From: Sphaerodactylus townsendi
Taxonomy: Eukaryota
NCBI RefSeq assembly: GCF_021028975.2
Contig: NC_059438.1
Coordinates: forward strand, 26,412,001 to 26,476,000
Length of the DNA: 64,000 bases
Reading direction: 5' to 3'
Positions 3,719 through 55,139 of this stretch are shown piece after piece (position 1 is the first letter of the stretch; every line of letters starts with the position of its first letter). Made by a program: the position numbers and the translations under genes. The notes beneath the pieces were generated by a model that was given only the letters and a program-made list of their open reading frames with translations, did no database searches and was not told the DNA's origin.

Positions 3719-3873
3719 GGCAAATCGAGGATTTTAGCACAGTTGACTCTTTGGGGTTTGGGTACCTGTTGCCTCAGGCTGAATGTAGGTCAGCAGGAAC
3801 GACAGACATTTGACCGAGGCCCGTAAGCATTCCTAAGCCGTTTTTCTTTCTCCCGTTTTATTTTTTATGGAAG

Positions 3874-4179
3874 GACTTCAACCTTTTATATGAAGAAGCC
3901 AGGTACTACCAGCTGCAGCCGATGATCAAGGAGCTGGAACGGTGGAAACAAGAGAAGGAGCAAAGGAAGCATTTTCAGCCATGTGACTGCTTGGTTGTGA
4001 GAGTGACGCCGGATCTTGGGGAGAGGATCGCGTTGAGCGGGGAGAAGGCGCTCATCGAAGAGGTCTTCCCGGAGACCGGAGACGTGATGTGCAATTCCGT
4101 CAACGCTGGCTGGAACCAGGACCCCACCCACGTCATTAGATTCCCTTTGAATGGATACTGTCGGTTGAATTCTGTACAG
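3874..4179 (+). CDS. KCTD15: KCTD15 penultimate coding exon (end of BTB domain and most of the C-terminal domain)
   Basis: Pyrimidine tract then aag|GAC acceptor and CAG|gtaacg donor; 306 nt, phase 0-0. Translates [102 protein letters not shown]. Residues [21 protein letters not shown] and WNQDPTH match KCTD15 rather than its paralogue KCTD1. Upstream exons lie outside the window. Confidence 0.97.
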
Positions 4180-4678
4180 GTAACGGGGCGCTTTTTAAAT
4201 TATTATTCCCAAGCATTTATGACTCGCTTTTATGTCATGTTCAGTTGTATGCAAATGAGTCCCTTCTGCCCAATTACCTCTGTCTGGTGCTTAAACTGCA
4301 AGGAGACATTTTCTGCCTAGTGAAATGGCAGTATGGGGGGTGGGGAGATATTTTTCCCTTCACTCAGAGCAGAGGGGAAAAAATACATTCAGATTTTGTG
4401 TATGTTAGCGCCATGCTGATCTCATAATGTTGTTAGGCTGACAAATGCTAATTTTTTTCATCAACGCCATACCCCGCAGCTCTTCGTTCCCTCTAAATTG
4501 CCCCTAGGAAGAAAAAGAGCAGAAAAACTACAAAAAAAAAGCACCCGTCTCTATGCCACTTTATAGAAAATGCAACAATGTGTAAATGCATAATTTATGT
4601 CCCACTCATAATTAAATGATAGAGCCTGCGGGTTGGACTTTAAAAAAAATGATCTCTGCACTTTTTTTTTTCCAAGAG

Positions 4679-4690
4679 GATGTTCTATAA
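4679..4690 (+). CDS. KCTD15: Candidate alternative terminal exon of KCTD15 (codes DVL-stop; short isoform)
   Basis: Long T tract then ccaagag|GAT GTT CTA TAA, in frame with the phase-0 donor at 4179. I recall a human short KCTD15 isoform ending ...VQDVL (unverified). ATTAAA at 4804-4809. Confidence 0.65.
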   Translation, partial: DVL

Positions 4691-5330
4691 AAATTGCCCA
4701 GAGTATTTTAAACAAAAATGTGTTCCACTTTATACTCAAAGGGGTTTTGTGGGGGTTTGGCAGGGCTTGGTTTGGTCTCTCTCTCTTTTTTTTAAGCTTT
4801 AAAATTAAACATGTGAAACGAAGGAAGATAACCAGGCAGAGATGAGATGTGGGAAGGAGCAAGAGATGTCTGTTTGCCCTTTGGGGAAAACTCTGGCTCC
4901 AAACGAGTTTTCCCACAAGAGAGAGAGCCCTGGAGGGTGACCCCACAGAAGGCCTTGGTGCTGAGCTGTCTGGGCTGCCGTTCACTAATTAGTGGGGCCA
5001 AAGCAACCTGGTTTCTTGTCACGTGGGAAGGGTAGCTGTAAGTATGGTTGCGAGGGGCTGCCCACCTTGGGTCATGTGACGGAGGCAGCGGGGAAACTCA
5101 CCTCTCAGGAACCAGGAGGTGAAAATCTTTGCTAGAATGATTGACGGAGTCTCGAGTTAGCAAACCAGAGTTAGAGGGGAGTGAGCAGCCAAAGAAGCAA
5201 GTAAAGCTTTTTTTTTTGGGGGGGGGGGGGGGGGCCTACTTGGCAGTTCTCTGTAATTCAAGCTCACATCCAGCATATTTAGGTAGATGGTTGGGTCAGG
5301 TGACTGAATCATGAAGTCCATCCCTTTATA

Positions 5331-5755
5331 TCAAGGGGCCCTAATGTGGTGCCAATGGATGCAGTGGTTCCCGCTGACAGCTTTCCTGATGGCTTCCAGG
5401 TATTTTAGAAAGTGGGCCTCGCAGGCTTCTGATTGGCCACTGGAGATCTCACTGCGTGCGCAGATTCAAAAGAAACCATTGCTTTTGGCAGCTGCCATCG
5501 CAGCACAATTATCTGCACTGTGTGACTGAAGGGAGTATGCAAAAAAAAGCTTTGAACCATTCCTTCATTTTAAAAGGCATCCTGTTAAACAGAGCTTCTG
5601 CCCAGTGGAAGAGTTACCATTAGAGTGACGCATGACCTCACTTCCGGAGATCATACAGTTGACCGCCTCTTGTGGCAGCCATTTTGTGGTTGTGCTCACC
5701 TTGCAGTGTCAGAATTCCAAAGGTGCCCAGAGACACAAAATGTTGAGATACCTGA
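5331..5755 (+). mobile_element. Non-autonomous DNA-transposon-like repeat with GCCATTTTG core
   Basis: Shared block ggcagccattttgtgg...aattccaaaggtgccca also at about 15395-15485, 17180-17290 and 25830-25945. Termini eroded. Confidence 0.6.
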
Positions 5756-6417
5756 TTTTCATCAAGAATACTTTTCAGATGTTAACAATTATTCATTACC
5801 AAGAGGCTCGTAACTGTGCCTAATGGGAGCAGAGCACGCACTGCCTCCAAGCTTCCCGATAAATGCGATCGCCATTTTGTAGAACAGGAATAACTGGCAG
5901 ATTAACCATCCATGTGCGTGACCACTTGTTCCTCTCTTGAATCTACGACTGACCAGTGTGACACCTAATAAACCAACTTCCTGATCATAGGTCACGTCAT
6001 GACTGAAATCGGTCTGCCTCCCACTCTGCTGCCCTCAATGAAACCCCATATCTGTCCCCCGAGGCTGTGTGGTGGATCGAGCACCTACTAGCTGCCACTT
6101 CCTGTCCTGAAACTGTTGGCGGCTCTGACGGTTCTAGACGAACTGGAAGTCTTCTCTCACGCACCTGTGGAAGTTGAGAGGACGATCTCCAGGGAATAGA
6201 ACATAGGTCGTAAAACTTGAATGCTTTAGAGCCAACGTTTAAGTACTTCCTAGTCAAATCATTAGTCCCCATTGAAGTGAACTGAGTTTCTAAAATCCAT
6301 CCCAAAGTTTCTTGAGATGAGAAGGTGTGCTAGGTAAGGTTTTTGCCCATGGGGACTGGTTGAGATGTTTCGGGTTTCTGAATTACCAGTTGTTTCTGTC
6401 AGGGGTCTGTGTAGAAC

Positions 6418-6724
6418 TAGAAGAAGAGGAGTTTGGATTTATACCCTGATTTTCTCAACTGTAAGGAGTCTCTCAAAGCGACTTACAAACTCCTTTTCTT
6501 TCTCTCCCCGCAACAGACATCTGATGAGGTAGGTGGGGCTGAGAGAGTTCTGAGAGAACTGTGACTGGCCCAAAGTCACCCAGCAGGCTCATTGTGTTGG
6601 AGTGGGGAAACAAATCCAGCCTGCCAGATTAGAATCCGCCACACGTGTGCAGGCGTGGGGAATCAAACCCGGTTCTGCAGGTTAGAGTCCGCCTGTTTCT
6701 AACCACTACACTACGCTGGCTCTC
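6418..6724 (-). mobile_element. Squam3-like SINE
   Basis: Same family as 2648-2937, reverse orientation, different subfamily. Confidence 0.85.
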
Positions 6725-7695
6725 CCTATCCTAACAGGACAGGTGTTGAGGAAACCTCCCCCCACCCCAAACAAAATAATTTTGCTCTCTGTGGTTGGAC
6801 TTCACAGGTCCATTCCAACATTGGGTGCACTTTACTCCAATGGCGGACACCTTCCTCAGGGAATACTCTTTTCGCTAACCAAAGTACCTCAGCTAGTGGA
6901 ATCATCCTGCTGGATCCAAGCAGGGCATGACGGAGTGTGAAACAGGGCATGGCAAGTTGGACCAGGACACCTAGGCTCAAATTCCTGCTCCTCAACTGTG
7001 ATTCTCATTAGCTGTCTAATCCTCAGCAAGGTTACACCCTTCTAAGCCTATGGACTTCTCTGGGCTCTGCGTAGGGTGACAGAGTCAGTGACGCCACAAG
7101 ATAGTGAACAGTTATCTCTCAAGATAATCCACCCACGGGCTTCTTGACAGCATAAAATGGGACGATCCCATGGATGTTACTCACAGTCTCTTGAAAGGCA
7201 AGGTACAGATGTCGCCAAGAAGAAAAGCCTAATATTTCCTGCCCATTTCATGTATCTGTCTCCAGGATCTAAAGCAGTGAAGAAGCTGTAAGTTTTTACA
7301 CTGCTCAAATCATGTTATTAAGACCATGTTTGTTAATTGCACTGAAAAATGTAAAAGAAATTCATCCCAGATAAAAGGTTGTGTTCCTGGTTGGAGGACT
7401 TGCCCTATCAATTAATGAGCTAGTGCTTTTGTACAGAATGCAAGGGAAATTAGGAGGTACGCCAGAGTTGTACAGCTGAATATTGTCTGGGGAATCTTTT
7501 GCAAAAGGGAAATAATCACAGGAATTCTTTGTTCAGTGTTCACCCAATATTTTCAGTGTTAGAATCTCTCTCCTGTGGCCAGATTCCATCTGTGCAGCTT
7601 TGTACGGAAGCAGACCTAGGGACCAAATCTGAATGTGCCTTTTGTTCCTCTGTGTACGGCAGGGTGCGTTCAAACAAACCTGCATGAATCTTCCC

Positions 7696-8484
7696 TGTTA
7701 CACAAACCCGTATGCAATGTTTCTGAAGCCTACATTCTCTCCTCCCAACTGGAGTGAATGTTGTTCTTGTGGTTGCCATGGGAGTAGGGCAGAGTAATGG
7801 ACGGCCGAGAGGCAGGAGGTCGTCACTTTGTAGAAGAGCCAGATTCTGGCAGCCTAGAAGTAGAGACCACTCAAGGCATGACAACACTCTTCTGGATTGG
7901 GAGCATTGGGCTGTAGGCAGCCCCCGGCCTGGGAACCAAAGCATGGCAGAAGAGGCAGGGATCTGCAACCTGCGGCTCTCCAGATGTTCATGGACTACAA
8001 TTCCCATCAGCCAATTGGCCATGCTGGTAGGGGCTGATGGGATTTGTAGTTCAAGAACATCTGGAGAGCCGCAGGTTGCAGACAGAGGATTGTTCAGTAT
8101 TGAAAGGGCACTAAGAGAGAAGTAGAAGAGAGACAAAATCTGGAAACAGGTAAGCAGTTTAGCTTGGGGAGACCTGCAGTCAACGTCAGGAGTAGTCAAA
8201 TACAATAGCAAGTTCGTCCAGGTATAACAGGCCTGTTTCAGGTGGATCTAAGTCCGGAGACTCAGCAGAGGAGCAAGAAGTAGGAAGCCCAGAAATCCAG
8301 GTAATACAAACCTTTGAGCTCAAGACTGGGTGGATCCAAAGGATCCAGACCTGATACAGGAGTCTTTATAGGCAGGCTGAGAGGAACTAGTGAGTTTCTG
8401 GGAAGAGACTGTCGCTCAGTTGCTGCACAGCTTCATCATCACCAGCACCAAAATAGATGGCGGTTCCCTCGTCAAAGCCTGACA
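7696..8484. mobile_element. Candidate solo LTR (Gypsy-like)
   Basis: TGTTA...TGACA termini, flanks ttccc/ttcac (4 of 5 match), and a TATA-like tttatag on the opposite strand. Contains the MITE at 7956-8082. Confidence 0.45.
7956..8082. mobile_element. Palindromic hAT MITE (right end truncated)
   Basis: Near-perfect hairpin, same family as 35633-35775. Confidence 0.85.
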
Positions 8485-8625
8485 TTCACAGAACAATGAG
8501 GAAGATCCTGCAAATGGCCGCCGGCTACACTTTCCCATCCTCCTTGGGGGCGGTAATGTTAAAGTTACCCATCCCAGTTATACATAGGGATGCTGCAAAT
8601 GTTGCATCAAACACATTCAGCAAAT

Positions 8626-8805
8626 TAAGAACATAAGAACAAGCCTGCTGGATCAGACCAGAGTCCATCTAGTCCAGCACTCTGCTACTCACAGTGGCCC
8701 AGCAGGTGCCTTTGGGAGCTCACATGCAGGATGTGAAAGCAATGGCCTTCTGCCGCTGCTGCTCCTCCTCCAAAGCACCTGGTCTGCTAAGGCATTCCCA
8801 ATCTG
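8626..8805 (-). mobile_element. CR1 3' end or CR1-tailed SINE
   Basis: taagaacataagaac tail and gctggatcagaccagagtccatctagtccagc stem; inverted copy at 14962-15142. Confidence 0.8.
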
Positions 8806-9470
8806 TCTCCATTAATTCCATTAAAATTAATTCTGACTGTGTAATACAATAATAAGAGAGGGGCCGAAAGGGTTCATTGGATCTTTCAGGTGTGGGACGC
8901 AAAACTCCTGCCAGTCATCATTGCACTGGACTTTTGTGAAACCACACATGCGCAGTAAGGCTGCAGATCCAAACAAGTTGGCAGTTATTAGTGTTGCTCA
9001 GGTCCACTCAGGTGCATACCAACAGGTAAGATTTTCTTTAGAAATGCAGCATTTGTATATTTGATTTGCAACTGATTTGATGGTTTAAACAGTTGTCTGC
9101 TGAGCAGAGCGGCAAATATTGGAGGTGAGGTAAAATTGGGCTGTGTAAGAATGTGCGTGCGTGAACAGATGATTGCATGGTACTGTGATGTTAGACAGGA
9201 ATAAAGTGAAGCAACCTCCCCAGCAGCCACAGGTCAATGAACACTTGGCCAACAACTCTGTTTTTGCAACTGGCAAACAGGATGTGAGCCAAGCCATTGG
9301 ATATTCAACTATTTATCATTCCTGGAGGAAACTGTGTGCCCAGTGCATCCAGTGGGAAGTTAGCAGCTACCCAAATCTACTTACCTCTACCGAGTATCTT
9401 TGTGATGCCAAAACTTCTGTTGCAATAACACATCGAGGACACTGAGCAAAGCAGACAAACCAGGCAGAAT

Positions 9471-9541
9471 TGTGTGTTCCTGCATTGCAGGGGGTTAGAC
9501 TTGATGGCCCTTGGGGTCTCTTCCAACTCTGTGATTCTGTG
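9471..9541 (+). mobile_element. CR1 LINE extreme 3' end
   Basis: gcagggggttagacttgatggccc...ttccaactctgtgattctgtga, the canonical CR1 terminus with ATTCTGTG-type octamer. Confidence 0.85.
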
Positions 9542-9714
9542 AAAAAATGTCTTCCCATCCTTGGCCACCAGCAGGGAGATTAATTAAGGATGAGGAGGTT
9601 GGGGAAGGGGAAAGGGTGTCCCTTTTCAAAGACCTTTCCCTGAAGAGGAGAGACCGGAGCGAAACAATCACCTCTGATGAACATTCAGTTGCACCCCATC
9701 CTCTAGACCTAAAG

Positions 9715-9833
9715 CACAAGTGTCGAACTCGCGGCCCTCCAAATGTTATGGACCACAGTTCCCATCATCCCCTGCCAGCATGATGGGAGCTGTAGTCCAT
9801 AACATCTGGAGGGCCAAGACTTCAACACCTATG
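9715..9833. mobile_element. Palindromic hAT MITE
   Basis: Hairpin; 8-bp TSD acctaaag/acctagag. Confidence 0.85.
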
Positions 9834-10749
9834 ACCTAGAGTGATGTTCGCCCTTAAGGGGAGGAGCATGCTGCTGTGATTGACACAGCTGTCGCTGAGC
9901 AACCACACCCATCAACAGCCCCGGCTCCAGGTCTTGACTTCCTGTCCCTCCTCCAGTGTAAACACAAACAGCTTCCCACGCTAGGCTTGGCTGCCTTCTC
10001 CTCTGCTACCCAGTTCCAGTGCCAGCTGGGCAGGGTGCCACTGTAGGATTGATTCAGCGTTGGAAAAATTGATGAGTCCTGGTTTCCTTTTTGCCTTTTT
10101 TCTTCCCTTTTTTCTTTGCCTTTTTTCTTCCCTGGTGATCGCCTGCAGCCAAGTCCTTCAAGCACATTTGTAGCTCAATGAAATGCTTTGTTCTGCATGC
10201 CAGGCTTTAAAAAGATCCTGTCTGCCTGGCTTGTGTGTTTTTATATTGCTGGCTCAGTTGAAGAAAAAGGCCTACTGCGAACCCCAGCCTCCCTCTCTTT
10301 GCTTGGGGACTCCGTTCGGCGCTTGTTTTCTGCTTCCTCGAGAAAGCGATGCCTCGCTTGAAACGTTGGAATGGCACATTGTTCAGCAGTGTAGTTACAG
10401 ACGGGCTGAGAGATCATGGCAAACGTGAAAGAAGGCAGAGTCACCCCTGAGCAGTTCTGTTGATGTGATTGCGATTTTCAAATACCTGAAAGGCTGGAAG
10501 GGAACAAAGATGCAATTTCTGCTGGTCCAGAGGGCAAGACTAGGGGCTAAAGTACACATTCGTTTTTTAAAACAAGTTGGGCCCGGGTTCTCTTGACCCC
10601 GCGTGGTTACCTGCAGCCACACAGCAGCTGTGAGAAATGGCTTTTTTTAAAAAAACAGCATGCCCAAATGGGCTTGGAACAGGACAAGAAAGGATCCCAC
10701 GCCACCTGTGCCCCCGGAGCTGATTCTTTGCACCAACCTGTGCTGGGAA

Positions 10750-11052
10750 GGAGAAGAAGAGTTGGATTTATATCCCCCCCACTTTCTCTCCCTTAAGGAG
10801 ACTTAAAGGGGTTTACAATCTCCTTCCCCTTCCCCCCTCACAACAAACACTCTGTGAGGTAGGTTGGGCTGAGAGAGCTCCAAAGAACTGTGACTAGCCC
10901 AAGGTCACCCAGCTGGTGCATGTGGCAGTGCACAGGCTAATCTGAATTCCCCCAGATAAGCCTCCGCAGCTCAAGCGGCAGAGAGGGGAATCAAACCCGG
11001 TTCCTCCAGATTAGGGTACACCTGCTCTTAACCACTTCAGCACTGCTGCTCC
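10750..11052 (-). mobile_element. Squam3-like SINE
   Basis: Closely similar to 1328-1616 and to the reverse complement of 2648-2937. Confidence 0.9.
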
Positions 11053-12814
11053 CCATTTTTACTGATGTACAAACACAGGATACTCTGTGTGCAACACCAA
11101 AAACAGGGAAACAACTTACCTCTCGCTCTGTTTTGGCCCAGGAAAACAGTTGGGGGGGGGAGAGCCAATGTCTTGCCTCCCTCCCATTATGGTGGCGCAG
11201 CAAGTCCATTTGGGCTGTTCTTTATTTTTGAAAGCCACCCCCCCCCCCCCCCCCCTGCTGTGCGACTGCCGGGAACCTGAACGTGTCATTTGGCCCTAAG
11301 TCTAGTGAGTTTAAATCACAGGAGAGAGAATCCATAGCTAGTGAGCATCAGAGAAGACAATGCTAAGGGTAGCAGCTGTTGGAAAATGGAGCCCATTACT
11401 TGTCTGGGGAAATCTGGATACCTATTTGTTGGGACTGTGGATTTCCAGCACGGAGTTGGGAGTTGGGCTGGAGGACTTGAACGGCCCAATTCATGTCTCA
11501 GACTCCTAAAGGCTCCATTCCGTCTGCACTTTTGTGCAGCTGTACCGTGAATGTACACCCTGGAGGCAGGCGTGGCCGGCAGTGTGCTTCCCCGCACCGT
11601 GTTTTATATGACATTTGTGGGGAGAAAGGGGCTGTAGGCCTTCCCTCTAGGCCATTTCAGACAAAATCTGGAGCCGAACATCTGTGACAGCTGCTGTTTG
11701 GGGCAGCTACCTCCCAGTAGAAGCCTCGCATGCAAACCACACGCAGGCAAGGCCGGCCCCAGCATTAGGCAACGAATAGCAGCTCCTTGGGTGCATCAGT
11801 AGAAAGTGTCAGCAAATTGACTGTTTAATGTATTGCTGTCTCTTGGTTGCCCCGGTAAGGTTTCGATTTGGATTGTCCTCCTGAGATGCTGAAATATTGT
11901 CAGCCATCTCTGCCCACCGGGCAGTCAAAACTCGAGAGCTGGTTCGAAAGGAAGCCCTTCTTTTGCAAAGCACGTAAACGAACCATTCAGAATTTGCGTC
12001 CGCCAGAGACGTGGTGATGCTCACAGGCCAAACCAGGAATGCACAAGGAGTTTCATATTCAGAACTCTCAGCAATTTTGTGAGTTAATTCCCAGGCTCAC
12101 AGGCGTCCAATGCAAATAGAGCCCTCAGGGAAAAGGGTCTTAAGCTCCTGTCCCCCCCCCCCCCACACACACACACACACAAACACACATGGCGCCCCAT
12201 CCAAGTGCCACAACCACGCTGTCCTGCTGCTCCCAGAGAGGCTTCTCGCTGGTTCAGGGGGGCATGCAAATCAAAACAGCCTCCCCATCTCCGAGAATCC
12301 TCTGTGGGGCAGAATGGGGGTCCTGATTGGCCTCCAGTGGTGTAAACCAACAAATGGCCCGGCAGGCAACTGACTAATGTCAGTTCCTCCGCAGCTGCAC
12401 CCATGGACCTCCCCCACTGAAGCAGTGGCATGGGCACTGGGAGCCTCACACTGCGTCCCAGCACGAGGGAGGCCAGGGACAGGCACACAGCAGTGGTTTC
12501 ACCCCTCCTCCGGGGTAAGTGCCCCAAAGAGGGAATTTCCACCGGTGGAAGCCTGTGCCGCTTCCACCAGTGAATTCATCCCCCTGCCCCTTCCCCAACC
12601 CAGATGGGGCTCATACACACACAAAGTCCCATGTTGGGCACCATTTTCCAGCCTCCTGTGGAAAATTTCCATATGTTCATAGATGTAAATGTTGAGGGCA
12701 TGGTTCCCTGAGGCCATTTCTGGTCAGGAAAATAGTATGGTGAAAGTGCTGATCTGAATCAGGGCCTAGCTACCACAAACACAGAACTCCCGGCACACGT
12801 CTCGCCGTCTGGCC

Positions 12815-12990
12815 AGGGTGGTGTGGTGGTGAAGTGTCATAGAATCTGGGAGACCCAGGTCAGTATCCTCGTCTGTGCCATGGAAACTCGCCGGGTGACC
12901 TTGGGCCAGTTAAACACTCATAGCTTAACCGACCTCACAGGGTTGACACAAAGATAAAATGGAAGAGAGCAGAACAATGTGATCCACCTT
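12815..12990 (+). mobile_element. Older MIR/Squam3-like SINE
   Basis: tRNA head relic and gggtgaccttgggccagt...acctcacagggttg core. Confidence 0.7.
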
Positions 12991-13284
12991 GAAATACAAT
13001 TCTGCACAGGACCTTAGATAACTTAAAGGGGCAATTGCAAGATAATTCAGCCAGCAGCTGTTAGCCGTGATAACTAAATAGAGCAGCCTCAGAATATCTC
13101 CCAAGTGTTTGGAGGCTGAGCAATTGTGGGGAGGGCTTTGGACCTCATGCCCATTTCCGGGGCATCAGGATGGCTTTCCTCCAGAATAAAACTCCTTTTT
13201 ATCTTCTCTGTCTTGGCAGTAGTAGCCACAGCGAATCACTTCCCCCTGCACAGTGGAGAAGCTGCATTCCAGTCTAGGAACTTC

Positions 13285-13510
13285 CAGTGTGGTGTCGTGC
13301 CTAGAGTGTTGGACTGGCATCTGGGAGACCTGGGTTCAAATTCCCTCTTGTGCCACAGAAGCTCATGGGGTGGCCTGGGGCTAGTCAACCTTCCTCTCTG
13401 TCTGAGCTACCTCACAAGGTTGATGAGTAGATAAAATGGAAGAGAGGAGAACGACGTAAGCAATTTTTGGTCCCCACTGCTGAGAATGGTGGGGTATAGA
13501 TGAATAAATC
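13285..13510 (+). mobile_element. Older MIR/Squam3-like SINE
   Basis: ccagtgtggtgtcgtgcctagagtgttggact...gggttcaaattcc head plus core. Confidence 0.75.
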
Positions 13511-14961
13511 ATTAAGTGGGAAGCTTTTCCTGCAAACTTACACTCAGTTGAGCACCTGGTAGCCCCTTCTGCAAAGAACTGAAAAACCAGAATAGAGATG
13601 TCAGTGATGCTGGGTTGTAAGGATTCTTCGGAAGAAGACAGCAGCCTTCTCAGTGGATTCTCTGGCATTTCATGCTAATAGCAACATGGAACTTGTGTGG
13701 TGGTCCTTCAAGCTTCCTATTTACATACAACAAGATCCAGTGTATCTTCTGACACCGGTCTTTGCTCTGAAAAAGAGCTTAACGATTTAACCCAAAGTAG
13801 CTGGGAGATGATGGTTGGGATTGTTTTCCCCAGTCTGGCTATGTATCCTTCTTCCTCTTCTCTTTCCATATTTTGTTCTCTGTTCCTCCTCCTCCCTCTG
13901 GTTCTAACATTTGCGTGCAGAAACACTGCCAACCTGGGGCAGAAATGTAGGAAATTTCACAGCAAGAGACAGCAGCGCAGAGATAAACGTGGTCCAAACT
14001 GAATTGTGTGAATGACTTTCTATGAGACAAATCCAACGTACATTGAAAATAACACATACACACAAACCTCTGAAGATGTATCGAAGCCAGATATTACGGG
14101 GTACCGGCAGCTCGTTGTGGGTTTGTCTAATTAGCTCAGAGAAGCTTATACTGAGTTGATGACATGAGTTATTGTAGGGTTTGACAAATTTGTGGGTAGT
14201 GGGGGACTGTATCACAGCCCCGTTCGCAGACTTTGTTCAGGTTATTGATTAAGTAAAGTGTGAAGTTACCCGTGTCTCAAGGCCAATCAATGCTTGCAGG
14301 GCTAAAAGCAGATCAAAGCTCGGCTCTGCCTTGCCCGTCTTGGGAGCAAAAGGCGGCGAGGGGAAGCCGGAAATGCCTGCCAAAAATGTGAGCAGATAGT
14401 AGAACCGAAGGCAGACAAGGCTTGGGATTGAGTGGCGGGGGCGGGGGCGGGGGGGGGGAGAGAGAAGAGGGAGAGTTCATAGAAAGGTTTAAAATCTCCT
14501 CAGGCAAAACATATACTTTCTGCCATATGAGATGATGCTGTAGGTCCAGGGGGCCAGAACAGCAGCTTCTGGAGAAAGTCACGAGGATAGTTAAAAATGT
14601 GCCAAAGCCAACACTGTATTTTACTGCCTGGGGAAGGGAGGGTAGGTGAGCTTCTTTCTTTCCCACTCACAGGAGCATATGTCTTGAAAATTGGGCTTCT
14701 CTGAAAGGTCTGGCAAAATTATGTAAGGTGAGAAATAAGATAGGAGCACACACAGAAACTGGGAGTCTTAAACCATCAAGTGATTCTTTTGGCCACGCAG
14801 TTGAACTGCCCAAAGATGTCTTTTGAAGTCTTGCCTTCCAGTTTTTTAGCTCTGCAATTGTACCCAATTTTTGTGAACTGGTGCTTGGGAGAGCAGATTG
14901 GGGAAATAGTTTAGAACAGAGAAGAAGAAGTCGTCATCGTCGATCTATAGCTCCCAATCAT

Positions 14962-15142
14962 GATCCTCCTTGATCTGAGATTGCAAATGCTTTAGCAGAC
15001 CAGGTGCTCGGAAGCAGCAGCAGCAGCAGAAGACCTTTGCTTTCACATCCTGCATGTGAGCTCCCAAAGGCCACTGCGAGTAGCAGAGTGCTGAACTAGA
15101 TGGACTCTGGTCTGATCCAGCAGGCTCGCTCTTATGTTCTTA
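14962..15142 (+). mobile_element. CR1 3' end or CR1-tailed SINE
   Basis: Reverse complement of 8626-8805; ends cttatgttctta. Confidence 0.8.
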
Positions 15143-16780
15143 GTGGTCCCCTACAAGGTGCCTGAGGGCATTTGGTATCTGCCATGTGCTTCAGAACAAT
15201 TGGAAGGATCATTATAAAGGCAGAACCAGTGACTGGCTGCCTTCATGCCCCTCCCTGGTTATCTTTTCTGTGTTTTTTTGTCCTCCCTTTCCCCTTTATT
15301 TGTCTTCTTCTGTGTCCATATTAGCTCCCCTTGGGGTTCTTCTGTATTTTATATCCCTCTTGGCTTTTCCACTAGTGTGAGTGCGTATGTTTGGCTCCGC
15401 CTGTTATGGTAGCCATTTTGTAGTGGTGTCCACCAGCCTGCCTCAAAATTCCGAAAGGGTCCACAAGCCCAAAACAGTGGCGGGGAGGGGAATTAGGAAA
15501 ATCCACAGTTGGCCAAAAGGTTTCTTGACAACACTAAACTTCCGGTGATGCTCGCTCCTGAAAAGAATGTTTCCAGTGGGAATAGCTCACATCTTATCTG
15601 TGTGACACAAAAGAGCACGGAATTGCAGAGGTAACCCTGCTGTTCTTGGCCCTTATATTTGGTTAATAATTTAGTCTAGTACAGGAAAAGTTTTGTGTCT
15701 AGATTTCAAAGATTTAAGTAATCATAATAAAGAAAATGACCCAGCCCTCTTTGCTGACACTGGTGGTAACCAGAGCATGCCACACGCTGGCTATTCTGTG
15801 GTCAGATGAGCATTTGTGCAAACTTCAGGGTATTCAGTTAAAACACACGGGTTTGCAGGGTGTTGTCAGAGAGAGGGGTGGACTTGGAGGTGTACTAAAA
15901 GGGTGCCCCCCCCCATCATAACATGCCTTGGTGGGCAACCCCCCTAATCTTAAGCTTAGAAAACAGGTGTCTGTCTACTTTCCACACCTCTTCCAATGTC
16001 AGGGATGAACCCTCACCCCAAACTGTGGTAAAGGCAGGGGTTGGGACCGCCTCTGCTGTCGGGCTGGACCTCTGAGGCAAGCACAGATTCTGGCCAGATT
16101 CCAAAAGCCAGCCTCACTTTGGGGAACCTGACTAAAGGGTGGTAGATTCAAAGGAATAGTCGGGTGTCTAGCAAATTCAGGTCATTGCAGGGGACAAACC
16201 CAGTGTGGGAGAACCTTAGAAATGGCAGGAAATACCCACAGAGGCAAGGAGCTGGTGGACTCTTTCTGCTTTTCTTCCCTTCTGATGTGACGGATTAATA
16301 ATGAGTTATGGCCTCATTTTACTATGACTGAAGCCCCTGTGTTGCTTTTCCTTAAGAGGTAGCATCAATATCTCTACCAGCCAGTATTTTACTCAGTAAT
16401 GTACTGAACTGCCCTGCAGAGTGCTTGTTTGTTTGATTAATATTTGGTTTTTCTACCGAGGTTTGCTGTAAGCAAGACTTTAATCACACTGTAGTCATTT
16501 AGGAATAAGTTATAGAATTATCGCTGCATAATATTCTGGGAGATCCTGAAAGACCAGAATGCATCACGTAAGGCTGTAGCAAGCTCTTGTGGGTCTGTTT
16601 TAAACACCTTTGGACCTTGGGGCCCACAGTTTTGGAGAGTCACCCGCCAGGGGAAGAGCTTAGATAATCTGGTGGGAAATATGATGCAGGGAGCACGAAG
16701 AAAACCTGGTTGTAGGCCCTGGTTTACCTACACAGTAGAATGAGGTGGCAGGATTCTGAAACAGTAGAATGAGCTATGCC

Positions 16781-16920
16781 CAGAGGTGGGATTCAGCCGG
16801 TTCGCACCACTTTGGCAGAACCGGCTGTTAAAATGGTGCTTGTAAACAATCAGTTAGTTGTTAAATTATTTGAATTCTCACCACCAGAACCGGTTGTTAA
16901 ATTATTTGAATCCCACTCTG
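16781..16920 (+). mobile_element. hAT MITE (CAG.GGTGGGATTCA termini)
   Basis: TIR cagaggtgggattca / tgaatcccactctg; TSD gctatgcc/gctgtgcc; internal duplicated gttgttaaattatttgaat. Confidence 0.85.
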
Positions 16921-17377
16921 GCTGTGCCCCTTGGGTCTGCAGGGGGAGGGTCCCCTTTGTCAGGCTGTGCAGAAATAGGGGTCGATGATTAATCTGGAGG
17001 AACCACTTGGTGCCAATGCATTCTGCTGCCGGAATATATCAGGCCCCACAAGTTTGGGTCCAGTCTGCCTTCATCTGTGCACGGAAATGACAGAATCTGA
17101 GAAGTAGCCTTCTTTCAGCAGCTCCCAGCTACAAGTTTTGTCTCAGCTGGAAGCAGAATCGCTTTAGCAAATGCCTAGTCTTTCAGTGGTAGCCATCTTG
17201 TGATTGGCCTCAGTCCCCAAGGCAGCCATTTTGTGGTGGGGCTCATTCTCCGTTCACAAAATTCCAAAGGTGCCCATAGGCTTAAAGGGACACAAAGGAC
17301 CTTTTTCAAGGGGGTGGGTATGTCTTCCATGCAGTGGTTCCCACTGTTAACCATTGGTGTGTGTTTTTCACATGCAG

Positions 17378-17533
17378 GTACTTGAGCGATTATTCCAGAA
17401 GGGGTTTAACGTGGCAGCGTCCTGTGGCGGTGGTGTGGATTCCTCTCAGTTCAGCGAATATGTGCTATGTCGCGAGGACAGGAGATCACAGCCCAATACC
17501 ACAATCAGGATAAAGCAAGAACCCCTGGACTGA
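17378..17533 (+). CDS. KCTD15: KCTD15 terminal coding exon
   Basis: Acceptor gtttttcacatgcag|GTA, in frame with the previous exon. Translates [54 protein letters not shown], the KCTD1/KCTD15 C-terminus with the IKQE SUMO consensus. Missed by the ORF track. Confidence 0.97.
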
Positions 17534-17755
17534 GGACCCAATCCCTTCCCCTCCTTTGTAAAAGTAGAAGTGTCAAATAGTCCCTCGTGTGGAAAAAAAA
17601 AAACTCAAGGATTTTCAAAACAGTATTATGCAGGCGACTTGGGTGTTGCCAATTAGTGGTATTTTGGAAACTACCTGTCGCGTTGCCAGCCATGAACTGC
17701 ATTTGACAACAAAGACGCAGACCCACACACAAACAAAAATTCAGTTTCTTTTGTT

Positions 17756-17761
17756 AATAAA
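17756..17761 (+). promoter_or_regulatory. Candidate proximal polyadenylation signal of KCTD15
   Basis: First AATAAA I found after the stop codon (about 220 nt downstream); usage not demonstrable from sequence. Confidence 0.35.
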
Positions 17762-18469
17762 TCACTGAGTTTGCGCCTCGCTCAGAACGGTTTGTGGGCA
17801 AGAGCTCTTGGCAGAATGGCTGCAGCGTGGACAAGAGGCGATGCTTCAGTGAAGAACAGACATTGACTGGATTTGTGCAGAAAGACCAATCGGTATCATT
17901 TGAATATGTCTGTTGAAGGAACACATCTGCCAGCTCGCTGGAGGACAAGCCCCCTCCCCCCCTTGGTGGCATTAAAGACATGGTGGCCACCCCAAGGAAG
18001 ATGGTGCTGTGTTGAGTGTCTTCCCCTCTCCCCGTGGAATGCCACACCTTCATCTGATAAGATATGCTTTTACACCTCCATTGCTTTACCTCTTCTTCTG
18101 TGTTTTCATTTGCTCGTTGTTATCAAATGGCTTATTTTTCTGTACCACCCTCTCATTGTTCGTGTGCAGAAGCTACCCTGAACAGGGCCAGTTCTCAGAT
18201 CTTTCTGGTGCTGAATTATTTCCAAATGGGCGCCCCTGTTGAGGTCAGCAGATTTTGTGCTGTGGTAATTTCATGTGTTGCACTCACAATCCGGAGAAGT
18301 TCAGTACCGCTTTTGCAGTTTGGGGAGGCTCAGCAAAGGTTCTGTGTAACATTAAACGGGCCCTGTCGAGTTATGGCCATGGTGTTTTCAAACTGATCTC
18401 CAGATTTTTGGAAAAGTTAAGACATAGCAAAAGAAGATCAAGCCCTCTTGGAACACACCAGAGTTAATC

Positions 18470-19183
18470 GGACTTTTTAGCACACACGGTTTGTTCTTGA
18501 TTTAATATATGAGGTCGTCACGGTTTCTGCCTTTTTTTCACACACACTTGAGCCGTAATGTGGCCCGACCCCTAATCTGTCGCTCATTTCAGCCTTTGTC
18601 TCACATTTTTCCTGTCGCTCGATAATTGTGCAACTTTCTTGGATAAAACGGATTCCCCCCACAATCTGGTGCCTAGGTGCAAAACGCAACTGGAACAAGC
18701 TACTGCGAGGGATCACGCCCACTGTGTGATGTGATCTCCTCCAACCAATCAGGATGCGGTGGAGCTTGCCAGTTGTGCGCGCACATTTCACTGTTTCGTT
18801 TCCGTCTCACTCTCCTCCCGCCCCTCCTTGCGGTCACTCACGCAGTGCATTGTTTCCAATGCCGCCCCGATATCTCGAGATAGCGAGTTCTCAACGCAGT
18901 GGTACACTGAGATAGTGAAATCACGCTGACTCGTTAGCTCATGATGACGGGGGCCAAGCGTCACACGGAACACGCCCTTGGACGGCGCAACAGCCAATCG
19001 GAACTCTCGTTTGTACTGCATTCCAGGGCAATGCAAAACCAAGGGGTTTCTGAAGCAACAAGAACATCCACAACAACCTGGTGATGTGTGAATGATCTCG
19101 AGCGACGAAACAGCAACAAAAAGGTCAGGATGTCGATGCGGATTGCCTTAATTCAAGAACAAACCATGTGTGCGAAAAAGCCC
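18470..19183. mobile_element. 714-bp TIR element (Harbinger-like termini), CpG-rich
   Basis: 36-bp TIRs matching at 32 of 36 positions (GGACTTTTTAGCACACACGGTTTGTTCTTGATTTAA vs GGGCTTTTTCGCACACATGGTTTGTTCTTGAATTAA); aatc on both flanks. Confidence 0.8.
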
Positions 19184-19225
19184 AATCCAGTGCCGAATCT
19201 GATTCCTTACAGCGGCCAACAAGGT

Positions 19226-19495
19226 AGAAAAAGAAAAGTTTGAATTTGTATCCCGTCTTTCTCTCCTATAAGGAGATGCAAGGTGGCTTACAAACTCCTT
19301 TCCCTTCCTTTCCCCACAACAGACACTTTGTGAGATAGGCTGAGAGGGTTCTAAAGAATTGTGACTAGTTCAAGGTCACCCAGCAGTCTTTGTGCAGACA
19401 AGCGGGGAAACAAATCCAGTTCACCAGATGAGAGTCTGCTGCTTATGGGGAGGAGTAGGGAATAAAAACCATTCTTAATCACAACATCATGCTAC
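19226..19495 (-). mobile_element. Squam3-like SINE (diverged)
   Basis: Similar to 6418-6724. Confidence 0.8.
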
Positions 19496-22400
19496 CCCTG
19501 AAAGGCCTACCTGCAGGGCATGGAAGCCATATTTTCCCACTGTCCTTGCTCTGCAGAATTAGTATTCAAAATATTACTACAGGGAAAGGCTATGACATTA
19601 GGCATAATACTATCAATCAACCCTGTCCTTCATGAATTAGTTCAGTCCCTTTTTAAAGCCATCTGAGCTAATGACCATAACTACATGGCAGTGAATTCCA
19701 CAGGTTACTGGTGCATCATGTGACATCCTTTTCTCTCTCCTGAATCACCTGCCTTTCCATAGATTGGTCATGCTAGTTCCGTGATCACCGGCCATCTTTA
19801 TTTAGCCCAGCATGTTCACAGTGCTTTGAAGTAAGCCAGACACCTGATGGACCAAGCCTCTGTTTTGCAAGTTTGTGTTTCTGGGTAATATATTATAGAA
19901 TTAGAGCCTATTAGTGTCAGGTAGCCTATTTGGGGCTCTTGGCATTCCACGAGCTTCCCATGGCTCAGGAGAAATCCCATTTCATTTGGCAGGACTGCGA
20001 TATCAAAGGGCAGGTGGTAAAATAATCCCCATAGTTTTCCTGGTGGGTAAATTGGGGGAGCCCCATTATCATGTGCAGATGCTCTTGCAATGCGCAAACA
20101 GATCAGGTTTGTGAAGGAATTGTATGAGCTACATGGGAATATATTACTTGGAGATACTAATTCACGGAACTTTAACAGAAAGTGGATCTTTGAATTGGAA
20201 CTACCAGATACCTCCGTCTTTGTTCAGTGATCCTGCCTGGAAGGGTGTTCAGATGTTAGTAGTCTAACAGGATCGCAAAGAGCTGCAGACATACCATCAG
20301 AAACTCCCCTCAGAAAGTGGTATTTTATAAGCAGTGAACAAAATGTACGTCTGTTCTGCATTCATTTCTTTGTCGTGGTCCTTACTCTTCTCTTTCACTC
20401 CCTGTTCCAGACGGAGTCCTGGGAATTGTGGTTTGCTGAAGGCACTGAAAATTCTGTGTGAAAATGTCCCTACCTGCTGAGAGACCGTTCCCAGAATTGC
20501 CTGGGGTGCAGGAGCGACTATTACACCGGCTTAAATATAAGCTGCTGATTCAAACCATTCTGAAGAAAAGGCAAACCAAACCTGGCTAGCTCCGAATGTC
20601 AAATTGTTCTTTCTCAGTCATTTGCAAATAAGGCACAAAATTAGAAATGACAGTGGTAATCGTTCCCTCTTTCATATCAACAAACTGCCCTCCTTCCGTC
20701 CTTGCAGTTGAAAGTTGGCATTCAGTCAAGTAGGGTTGATGCTCAGAGTTGAACAGCCAATTTTTGGCTTTCTCTTTTTAAATCGTTCAGCAGAGCTGGT
20801 GAAATTTGTAGCGGGGAGATTTCTGGGCCTTTGTGAAATGTTGGTTGTAGGGTTGCCTGCTTGAGAAGCAGCCCCTGTAGCTGTGTCTCTCACAGATGAA
20901 AAGATGGCCTTGGTTATCTTCACGCTACAAAAAGGCTTCCCCGGTGATTTTATCAAGTCCCAGTGGTTGCTAAAGGAACAGGTTCGGGATAGGGAGTGGT
21001 TTGGTCAGTTGGCAACCCTGACTGGGCTTTCAAACCCAGGCCTTACTGATGAAGCTGAATTAAAGACTTCAGCTTCCCCTCGGTCCCTGTCACAACAACA
21101 AATCTTCCCCAGCATTACCAGCCCAACGTTACCAATGCAGAGCAATGGCTGCGCCAGCAGATAAATCTGCCACCTTCAAATACGATTATTTAATGTCCTT
21201 TCCACTTTTATGGCACTCTAAATAAAACAACTCAGTCCTGAGGACATCACTTTTGTATGTAAGATACCTGTTGAATTGTATTGTATTATATACATTTAAG
21301 ATTGTACCTTCCTCTGCCCCGACGTCACAAAACCCAAAACCATCCGTATGTGTTTATGGACATTTCATTCCCTCGTTTCATCCAGGCATTCTCACAAAGG
21401 CAAAAGCTGTTTGGGAATCATCTGTTATTTAGCGCATTCCTCAGGAATGTTTGGGGGTTCCACTTGGTTATTCTTCGGGACCCGGTTTGCCAAGAAATCC
21501 TCTTGAACAGACAGAGCAAAGAGGACTTCTTTGGAATTGTGTCTTTGAAAACATCTGCTTTGATTAGCCTGGCGCCCGGAAATTTAAATATATTCATTTT
21601 TATTACAATCATCAGCCAATTGAAGCAACTCTGGTTGATTCACTGTACAGTTTTAGTTCCGTAATTAATTGATCATTAAGTTTCACATGGGAAAAAGAAA
21701 CCCACTCATTAAAAAAAAAACAGGTCTCATCAGCTAAGCAGGGTCATTTTTGGTTAGTGACTGATGGGAGGTCCACCGTGGAAACCAAGGGTTGCTATGG
21801 GAAAAACCATCTTTGTTCATCTCTGTCCTTGAAAACTCTATGGGCTCGCCTGCAACTTGATGGCACTTTCCATCTTCACCACTTATGCTGTGCCACGTAT
21901 CATCTTAGAAGTATTCCCACCTCTCGAGAAAGAATACCTCTTCTAAAATTGCGGTCGCTATTTGCAGCTTTAATTTTTAAAAAGGCGTGTATCTGCTGCT
22001 CGACTCATTCAGGGGCAGCTTTTTAGTGGATCAAAAGATTTTTGAACCAATTAGGTTCAGTTAATTTACTAAAGGTTGTAGCCCTGATAATTAAATTCTT
22101 CAGTTTCAATTCTTTCAGCACAGTCTACCCAGCGCTTGTGTATCATGGTGTTTATGGGATGTGCAGGGTTGGTCCACCAGATGCGAATCCTTTACTCCAG
22201 CATAAAGAGGATTCATATCGACAGCTCTGCCAGCATGGCCAATTGGCCATGCTGGCAGGGGCTGATGGGAATTGTAGTCCATAACATCTGGAGTGCCAAA
22301 GGTTCGCCACCATGGGTCTAGACTCAAGGAGTTTCTGCTGTGGACTCTTGGGAGTATGGAGGAACGTTGGACACTTCTGGGTGGAGATCAGAAAAACTAA

Positions 22401-54993: not shown

Positions 54994-55139
54994 NNNNNNN
55001 NNNNNNNNNNNNNNNNNNNNNNNNNNNNNNNNNNNNNNNNNNNNNNNNNNNNNNNNNNNNNNNNNNNNNNNNNNNNNNNNNNNNNNNNNNNNNNNNNNNN
55101 NNNNNNNNNNNNNNNNNNNNNNNNNNNNNNNNNNNNNNN
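54994..55139. other. Assembly gap (146 N)
   Basis: Run of N. Confidence 1.

What the first reader, a model, noticed from the sequence alone, without database searches (positions are those of the whole stretch)
4550..4810. Hidden alternative terminal exon giving a truncated KCTD15 ending ...NSVQ-DVL*
Seen: 500 nt after the donor at 4179, a repeat-free AT-rich block contains a strong T tract followed by ccaagag|GATGTTCTATAA. In frame this adds D-V-L-stop, and an ATTAAA follows at 4804. Recalled, unverified: human KCTD15 has a ~234-aa isoform in which VLE... is replaced by DVL. Inference: the short isoform is conserved from lizard to human. It would keep the BTB domain but lose the last 51 residues, including the end of the CTD and the IKQE SUMO site, so it could modulate oligomer assembly or AP-2 repression. 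Choosing it also skips the remaining 12.7 kb of intron.
Basis: partly seen in the sequence, partly recalled or inferred. Interest (0 to 1): 0.75.

Follow-up and report, generated by a model that had tools for sequence, protein, structure and literature searches.

The report
Conserved truncating exit in KCTD15 intron
The last intron of this lizard's KCTD15 gene (a brake on AP-2 transcription factors in the neural crest) holds a stretch shared with mammals that matches the exon behind a database-listed short mammalian protein; it likely lets the lizard make a minor cut-short form too, likely with a different tail, but no RNA read seen here shows it.

Summary
The sequence features are as described. 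Marmoset and bat records end ...NSVQDVL at 234 aa, so the short isoform is already annotated in mammals. The lizard block is orthologous at DNA level: 18 of 32 mammal-type intron read-through tails hit 4549-4616, and one mammal tail aligns across the acceptor and exon to 4740 (score 52.9; 0 of 100 shuffles reach it). The lizard DVL acceptor is a GAG, the weakest class, with an AAG 2 nt upstream; that mammal has an A at this base. The likelier lizard product is therefore a frame-shifted 41-aa tail. The same mammal lacks the stop after DVL. Both products lose the last 51 residues. In four RNA data sets only the constitutive junction was listed; coverage was low and human-like reads are filtered. 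Terminal versus cassette use is untested. Verdict: a real amniote-conserved truncating exit, probably minor, whose DVL peptide is not shown to be conserved. An enhancer remains a rival. The scan had no earlier KCTD15 note.

The parts
3874..4179 (+). KCTD15 penultimate coding exon (end of BTB, linker helix, first half of CTD; ends ...YCRLNSVQ)
   Evidence: translation; 93-97% identity to top KCTD15 records; covered by spliced RNA contig 3871-4174 and by raw reads; start 3874 inferred from AG 3872-73
4180..4181 (+). 5' splice donor shared by both exits
   Evidence: sequence; joint of 13,198 nt to the last exon in run X2
4199..4418 (+). Intronic block conserved in sauropsid-type records; role unknown
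   Evidence: 13 of 16 sauropsid/amphibian-type read-through tails hit it; tblastn
4549..4616 (+). Non-coding block conserved between lizard and placental mammals, 62 nt upstream of the alternative acceptor
   Evidence: 18 of 32 mammal-type tails plus P0096 hit it, best E 7.5e-13; matches in two frames at E<0.01 and in the third only weakly (E 0.11), so the conservation is at DNA level
4649..4654 (+). Putative branch point (A 4652) inside the 50-nt AG-free zone
   Evidence: inference from sequence and spacing; consensus recalled; not tested
4662..4673 (+). Polypyrimidine tract T10-C2
   Evidence: sequence; ranks 2nd-3rd of 1,016 AGs in the intron
4675..4676 (+). Proximal acceptor AG (AAG); predicted to be the favoured one in this lizard
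   Evidence: hierarchy CAG>TAG>AAG>GAG in PMC2018619; use untested
4677..4678 (+). Distal acceptor AG (GAG); position orthologous to the mammalian DVL acceptor
4679..4690 (+). D-V-L-stop (product if the distal AG is used)
   Evidence: same ending as P0058 and P0059
4677..4802 (+). 41-aa frame beginning RMFYK, stop at 4800-4802 (product if the proximal AG is used)
   Evidence: no database protein matched it (weak evidence)
4640..4740 (+). Acceptor and exon-start region homologous to a mammal-type intron read-through (P0144)
   Evidence: score 52.9, ends at 4740; best elsewhere in the intron 21.1; shuffles max 29.0, 0 of 100; start read from the codon view, approximate
4804..4809 (+). ATTAAA, candidate polyadenylation signal with a T-rich tract upstream
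   Evidence: sequence; cleavage not shown; a low-depth unspliced contig runs through it
5038..5043 (+). GTAAGT, candidate donor that would make the exon a stop-carrying cassette instead (a weaker one at 4703)
   Evidence: sequence scan; use untested
17378..17533 (+). Constitutive last coding exon (51 aa, VLERL...IKQEPLD, stop)
   Evidence: spliced contig at depth 309 in run X2

Best explanation
The 4549-4740 stretch is an intronic element conserved between this lizard and placental mammals and matches the exon that gives the annotated 234-aa mammalian KCTD15; in the lizard it likely acts as a weak alternative 3' splice exit ending at the nearby poly(A) signal, likely used in a minor share of transcripts and likely more often in the frame 2 nt upstream (41-aa tail) than as DVL. 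Shown: position, DNA homology, the two AGs, and what is cut off. Inferred: splicing in the lizard, the preferred AG, cleavage near 4830, and that selection keeps the truncating exit rather than the three residues. Either product would keep the pre-BTB/BTB part that oligomerises and binds AP-2, and would lose the CTD helix that docks on the neighbouring BTB, the ion-channel strand and the SUMO lysine. The exit would lower full-length KCTD15 and yield a CTD-broken subunit that is either unstable or weakens KCTD1/KCTD15 pentamers (inferred).
For: Mammalian DVL-ending records: 2 of 202 proteins that carry the exon end. DNA homology of the upstream block (18 of 32 mammal-type tails) and of the acceptor and exon (P0144, 0 of 100 shuffles). 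Strong tract and 50-nt AG-free zone kept in the lizard. AAG ranks above GAG, and GAG is rarely used (PMC2018619 passages). The peptide is not invariant: Tyr replaces the stop in P0144. The proximal frame stops at 4800-02, directly before ATTAAA. Structure: query Q231 aligns with Q205 of full-length KCTD1; KCTD1 helix 203-213 forms the inter-chain BTB-CTD contact and 219-224 lines the channel (bioRxiv 2024.06.14.599007 passages); the long model has helix 229-238 and strands 242-247 and 257-264 after the cut.
Against: No joint into 4677 or 4679 was listed in any of 4 runs. Raw reads gave zero depth over 4281-5242 against about 4-5 on the exon; a share of 15% or more would give this with P about 0.04 if nothing was filtered. 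Run X2 has the constitutive form at depth 309 and no contig over 4318-4761. The tool shows only 15 of 393 joints and drops human-like records, so these blanks are weak. The one contig across the acceptor (X5, depth 5 against 192 on the exon) is unspliced and runs through ATTAAA to 4997. No sauropsid protein with either tail was found. The acceptor comparison rests on one mammal record known only as protein. Both folds are low-confidence (mean pLDDT 53 and 51).
Confidence: 0.45

Rival explanations
1. The conserved stretch is mainly a DNA element (developmental enhancer or autoregulatory site). The acceptor is a by-product that is used at a detectable level in mammals and not in the lizard.
For: The best-conserved part (4549-4616) lies upstream of the branch region and holds AACAATG and several TAAT/TAATTA words (SOX- and homeodomain-like; labels recalled, not tested). 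The lizard acceptor is degraded to AAGAG. Only unspliced signal was seen over it. [quoted passage not shown]
Against: Homology runs through the tract, the acceptor and about 60 nt of exon, which an enhancer alone would not need. The AG-free zone and T tract are intact. No paper on an enhancer here appeared in the listing.
Confidence: 0.22
2. One reading: the lizard splices to 4679, polyadenylates after 4804 and makes the same ...NSVQDVL protein as mammals, a conserved functional isoform.
For: DVL-stop is intact and in frame; chance expectation 0.008. D, V and L codons need no change against the mammal. A proximal AG can be recognised while a neighbouring distal AG is selected (PMC2018619 passage); the +1 G favours the distal site (recalled consensus).
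Against: GAG acceptor behind an AAG. 0 of 48 sauropsid/amphibian-type proteins seen end in DVL. Stop lost in P0144. No reads.
Confidence: 0.17
3. The exon is a stop-carrying cassette, not a last exon: it is closed by the donor at 5038 (message then degraded by nonsense-mediated decay) or at 4703 (24-nt exon, stop 12 nt before the junction, escaping decay) and spliced on to 17378.
For: Both donors exist. Long conserved intronic flanks are typical of regulated stop-carrying exons in developmental regulators (general knowledge). Decay would explain the absence from steady-state RNA. The X5 contig passes ATTAAA without ending there.
Against: No joint from 4702 or 5037 to 17378 was listed. The 4703 donor is weak, and no conservation was shown beyond 4740. 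Mammalian databases list the product as a protein.
Confidence: 0.16

Closest known systems
Mammalian KCTD15 234-aa isoform ending ...NSVQDVL (UniRef records for Callithrix jacchus, P0058, 3 members, and Molossus molossus, P0059, 10 members; a human counterpart is recalled, no human record seen)
   Same: Same intron and donor, homologous upstream block, tract, exon start and D-V-L codons.
   Different: The lizard has AAGAG where the one readable mammal has a Lys codon (A at that base), so the DVL acceptor is a GAG behind an AAG. The conserved block ends at intron nt 437 in the lizard against 117-189 in mammal-type records. Use in the lizard is not shown.
Alternative last exons / skipped-type intronic polyadenylation that truncate a regulator (general class, from knowledge)
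   Same: Own acceptor, in-frame stop and a poly(A) hexamer early in a long last intron.
   Different: Junction and 3' end not demonstrated here; two tandem AGs give two frames.
Conserved stop-carrying (poison) cassette exons; in this scan, the PPM1K note e1-9825628
   Same: DNA-level conservation of a short stop-carrying exon and its flanks, with truncation rather than peptide as the constant.
   Different: No used downstream donor and no decay sensitivity shown for KCTD15.
KCTD1/KCTD15 pentamer (PDB 9FOI, 9FQ1, 6S4L for KCTD1; 8PNM for the KCTD15 BTB)
   Same: The short form keeps pre-BTB, BTB, linker helix and the first CTD strands.
   Different: It lacks the last CTD helix, the channel strand, the last strand and the SUMO tail; no solved chain among the 40 matches is named as such a form.

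Membership tests
Orthologue of the mammalian KCTD15 DVL exon | Same intron and order relative to the donor | tested here: met
   Mammal-type read-through tails that begin at the same donor hit 4549-4616 and 4640-4740
Orthologue of the mammalian KCTD15 DVL exon | DNA homology across tract, acceptor and exon start | tested here: met
   P0144 score 52.9 against shuffle maximum 29.0, 0 of 100; one record only; nhmmer did not find this hit at E 0.01
Orthologue of the mammalian KCTD15 DVL exon | DVL acceptor is the first AG after the tract and not a GAG | tested here: not met
   AAG at 4675-76 precedes GAG at 4677-78; the mammal codon at that place is Lys, the lizard's Glu
Orthologue of the mammalian KCTD15 DVL exon | Makes the same protein ending in the lizard | tested here: inconclusive
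   No junction listed, low coverage and filter; 0 of 48 sauropsid/amphibian-type proteins end so
Alternative last exon / intronic polyadenylation | Own 3' splice site (tract, AG-free zone, AG) | tested here: met
   sequence features only
Alternative last exon / intronic polyadenylation | Spliced junction from the upstream donor in RNA | tested here: inconclusive
   none among the 15 of 393 joints shown
Alternative last exon / intronic polyadenylation | Cleavage and polyadenylation after the hexamer | tested here: inconclusive
   ATTAAA present; no read ends listed there; a low-depth contig reads through
Poison cassette exon (NMD-coupled) | In-frame premature stop | tested here: met
   Stops at 4688-90 or 4800-02, depending on the AG
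Poison cassette exon (NMD-coupled) | Used downstream donor more than 50 nt after the stop | tested here: inconclusive
   Candidate at 5038; no joint listed
Poison cassette exon (NMD-coupled) | Stabilised when decay is blocked | not testable with these tools
   Needs NMD inhibition
Conserved developmental enhancer | Open chromatin or reporter activity | not testable with these tools

The most novel reading that the evidence does not exclude
Amniotes share a regulated splicing exit in KCTD15 whose only constant is to cut the CTD in half. It yields a subunit that still joins KCTD1/KCTD15 pentamers and binds AP-2 through pre-BTB/BTB but has no ion channel strand and no SUMO off-switch, and so tunes AP-2 repression in neural crest, skin and kidney. 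If the human 'transcript variant 1' (NM_024076) is this short form (recalled, not checked), published co-IPs made with that clone have already tested the short protein without saying so.
Probability: 0.15. Interest if true: 0.6.

Novelty: new member of a known kind. Interest (0 to 1): 0.33.

Why it matters
KCTD15 and KCTD1 repress AP-2 as mixed pentamers, and their disease mutants are thought to act as dominant negatives (PMC10866662), so a natural CTD-truncated subunit could matter at a low dose. The mammalian short form sits in databases, but I found no study of it in the held library (searches). Showing that its DNA element is shared by a squamate and placental mammals argues that it is under selection. 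The lizard's shifted acceptor suggests that the cut, not the DVL peptide, is what is kept. It remains an ordinary kind of event, with no expression evidence in the lizard.

Tried and rejected
No whole genome is held for this window. Cluster membership of P0058/P0059 could not be looked up, so which species share the DVL ending, human included, is open. Run search: no RNA holder on record (no evidence either way). Exact-pattern scans for the conserved block found 0 matches in metagenome, viral and prokaryote contigs. Two metagenome loci with the exon (L001, L002; teleost-like by inference) show no similarity to window 4180-5200 beyond 11-19-nt chance words (best E 0.35) in 3.8 and 2.6 kb of downstream sequence; this fits an amniote-limited element but is only two partial loci. 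The 49-aa frame that holds the RMFYK tail found no homologue. The 77-aa third frame gave 2 hits: a repeat protein (P0203) and a two-copy repeat at E 4e-4 (P0204), both judged chance. No Rfam match in 4100-5300; folds of the block were weak, about -9 and -17 kcal/mol, with no shuffle control, so no RNA structure is claimed. No tandem repeat in 4100-5300. Extra depth in run X5 over 4281-4761 (13.6, of which the listed contig explains about 2.4) could not be traced and is not used as evidence. The chicken paper on KCTD15 variant transcripts (PMID 25447881) is not held. No complex prediction was sent: a pass would follow from likeness to solved KCTD1 pentamers. Loss of the SUMO site as a loss-of-function mechanism was rejected: unSUMOylatable Kctd15 still represses AP-2.

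Full report
Observation. The + strand holds the 3' end of a squamate KCTD15 gene. The exon ending at 4179 reads ...YCRLNSVQ and is 93-97% identical to the top KCTD15 records. The last coding exon is 17378-17533, 51 aa, 98% identical to a Phrynosoma record. An RNA contig from a related organism joins the two with a 13,198-nt skip at depth 309 (run X2). In the intron, T10 (4662-4671) is followed by CCAAGAG and GATGTTCTATAA (4679-4690, D-V-L-stop); ATTAAA is at 4804. AG+DVL-stop occurs once in the window; 0.008 would be expected in this intron from composition; the tract ranks 2nd-3rd among the intron's 1,016 AGs and has a 50-nt AG-free zone.

The mammalian isoform. Two searches listed 120 of 663 and 120 of 381 hits. 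Of 204 stored proteins, 202 carry the exon end. Two of them end exactly ...NSVQDVL, both 234 aa and mammalian: Callithrix (P0058, 3 members) and Molossus (P0059, 10 members). No human record was seen, so the human isoform stays recalled; cluster members could not be listed. Among 48 sauropsid/amphibian-type proteins, 0 end in DVL or begin an RM tail. These are representatives of 90% clusters, so short forms may be hidden; this is a weak negative.

DNA conservation. Gene callers often read from this exon into the intron, and those tails record intron DNA. I back-translated 93 tails of 25 aa or more into profiles and searched the whole window. 18 of 32 mammal-type tails hit 4549-4616 (best E 7.5e-13). 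One more, P0096, which my rule misfiled among the 45 'fish/other', did too; the other 44 had no hit. 13 of 16 sauropsid/amphibian-type tails hit 4199-4418. Tails that stop before the block cannot hit it. The mammal matches fall in two frames, and weakly in the third, so the constraint is on DNA or RNA, not on a peptide. One mammal-type record, P0144, reads through the acceptor...FFPSQKDVLYKWPEVFSTKC against the lizard's ...FFFQEDVL*KLPRVF*TKMC. nhmmer missed it at E 0.01. A gapped profile alignment scored 52.9, ending at 4740, against 21.1 elsewhere in the intron, 22.3 on the other strand and at most 29.0 in 100 shuffles. So the lizard stretch is the orthologue of the mammalian DVL exon, with its upstream block. 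Two teleost-like loci showed no such element in the part of the intron held.

The lizard has two AGs 2 nt apart. The first is an AAG (4675-76); the one that gives DVL is a GAG (4677-78). PMC2018619 (passages) gives the order CAG > TAG > AAG > GAG and says GAG rarely serves as a splice site; it also notes that a proximal AG can lead to choice of a nearby distal one. In P0144 the codon before D is Lys, so that mammal has A where the lizard has G at 4676. Three DNA runs hold all 138 sampled words of 3800-5200, which argues against a typing error at this base, though they may be the assembly's own source. The proximal AG gives a 41-aa tail starting RMFYK, with its stop at 4800-02, one base before ATTAAA; no database protein matched it. 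P0144 also has Tyr in place of the stop after DVL, and only 117 nt between donor and D codon, too short to hold the upstream block at its usual place. The tripeptide is therefore not invariant, while every exit removes the same 51 residues.

RNA. I laid 4 of the 14 listed runs on 3800-18200. Two raw-read runs (about 6% and 19% read) had depth of about 4-5 on the exon and on the 3' UTR, and zero over 4281-5242; not even the constitutive joint passed the three-read rule in them. If nothing was filtered, an alternative share of 15% would leave zero reads with P about 0.04, and 5% with P 0.35. X2 has the long form as one contig, intron pieces at depth 4-5 on either side and nothing over 4318-4761. 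X5 has an unspliced contig over 4532-4997 at depth 5 against 192 on the exon, running through acceptor and ATTAAA, as pre-mRNA or DNA would. Only 15 of 393 joints are shown and human-like records are dropped, so absence is weak evidence. The data fit a minor or tissue-limited event, and also no event.

Effect on the protein. Q231 of the mammalian form aligns with Q205 of full-length KCTD1. In KCTD1, helix 203-213 makes the inter-chain BTB-CTD contact and 219-GSCGGG-224 lines the ion channel (bioRxiv 10.1101/2024.06.14.599007, passages). TFAP2A binding needs the N-terminal BTB extension, and ions in the CTD slow its release (PMC7618933, passages). The BTB half is needed for homo-oligomers (PMC6828672, passages). 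My long model puts helix 229-238 and strands 242-247 and 257-264 at or after the cut; in the short model confidence over 161-234 falls to 28-59 per block from 39-85. Both models are low-confidence (mean 53 and 51). SUMO attaches only at the C-terminal motif; unSUMOylatable protein still represses AP-2 and a SUMO fusion barely does (PMC3782465, abstract and passages). Inferred: the short form keeps the assembly and AP-2-binding parts, has a broken CTD and no SUMO switch; it is either degraded or weakens mixed pentamers.

Mechanism and odds. Best (0.45): a weak alternative last-exon exit, minor, frame likely shifted in this lizard, kept for the truncation. Enhancer with an unused acceptor: 0.22. 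Literal conserved DVL protein: 0.17. Cassette closed at 5038 or 4703: 0.16.

Literature. Eight searches listed no paper on a short KCTD15 isoform; the library lacks most subscription journals. Passages were also read in PMC10866662 (plus section 7), PMC13361646, PMC8440651, PMC5720732, PMC4431850 and PMC12724149; none described it. A chicken paper on KCTD15 variant transcripts (PMID 25447881) was seen only as a title in a reference list and is not held; it may already report a sauropsid short form. No supplements were read; splicing tables in them could list this event.

Verdict. A real, amniote-conserved element, orthologous to an annotated mammalian truncating exon; use and product in the lizard unproven. 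New member of a known kind; interest 0.33.

Noticed in passing
window 4199-4418: A second intronic block directly after the donor is conserved in bird- and reptile-type records (13 of 16 tails) but was not hit by mammal-type tails, whose intron start looks GC-rich and much shorter.
   Followed up: partly
P0144 (mammal-type, unnamed): This record seems to lack the upstream conserved block and also lacks the stop after DVL, as if block and stop were lost together; a single record, possibly an assembly variant.
   Followed up: partly
PMC10866662 methods and PMC8440651 methods: Published KCTD15 pull-downs used 'transcript variant 1' (RC200838) and NM_024076.2 clones. From recall, not checked, NM_024076 is the 234-aa form, in which case those experiments tested the short protein.
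   Followed up: no
window 4281-4761, run X5: Mean contig depth is 13.6, of which the one listed contig explains about 2.4; the rest does not extend past 4761 and its source is not shown.
   Followed up: partly
window 4785-4802: A second T-rich tract ending in AAG (4795-96) scores highest of all AGs in the intron and would add Leu-stop; it may instead be a U-rich element upstream of the ATTAAA.
   Followed up: no
P0004, P0030, P0123: Other annotated non-mammalian KCTD15 forms end in different short tails after the same donor (scrub-jay AAE, python 15 aa, Bombina FKWK); none of these tails gave a tblastn hit in the window.
   Followed up: partly
window 17534-21240: The long form's 3' UTR is expressed to at least 18150; an AATAAA near 21222 after AU-rich sequence may mark its end, giving a UTR of about 3.7 kb (read).
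   Followed up: no
window 54994-55139: Assembly gap of 146 N.
   Followed up: no
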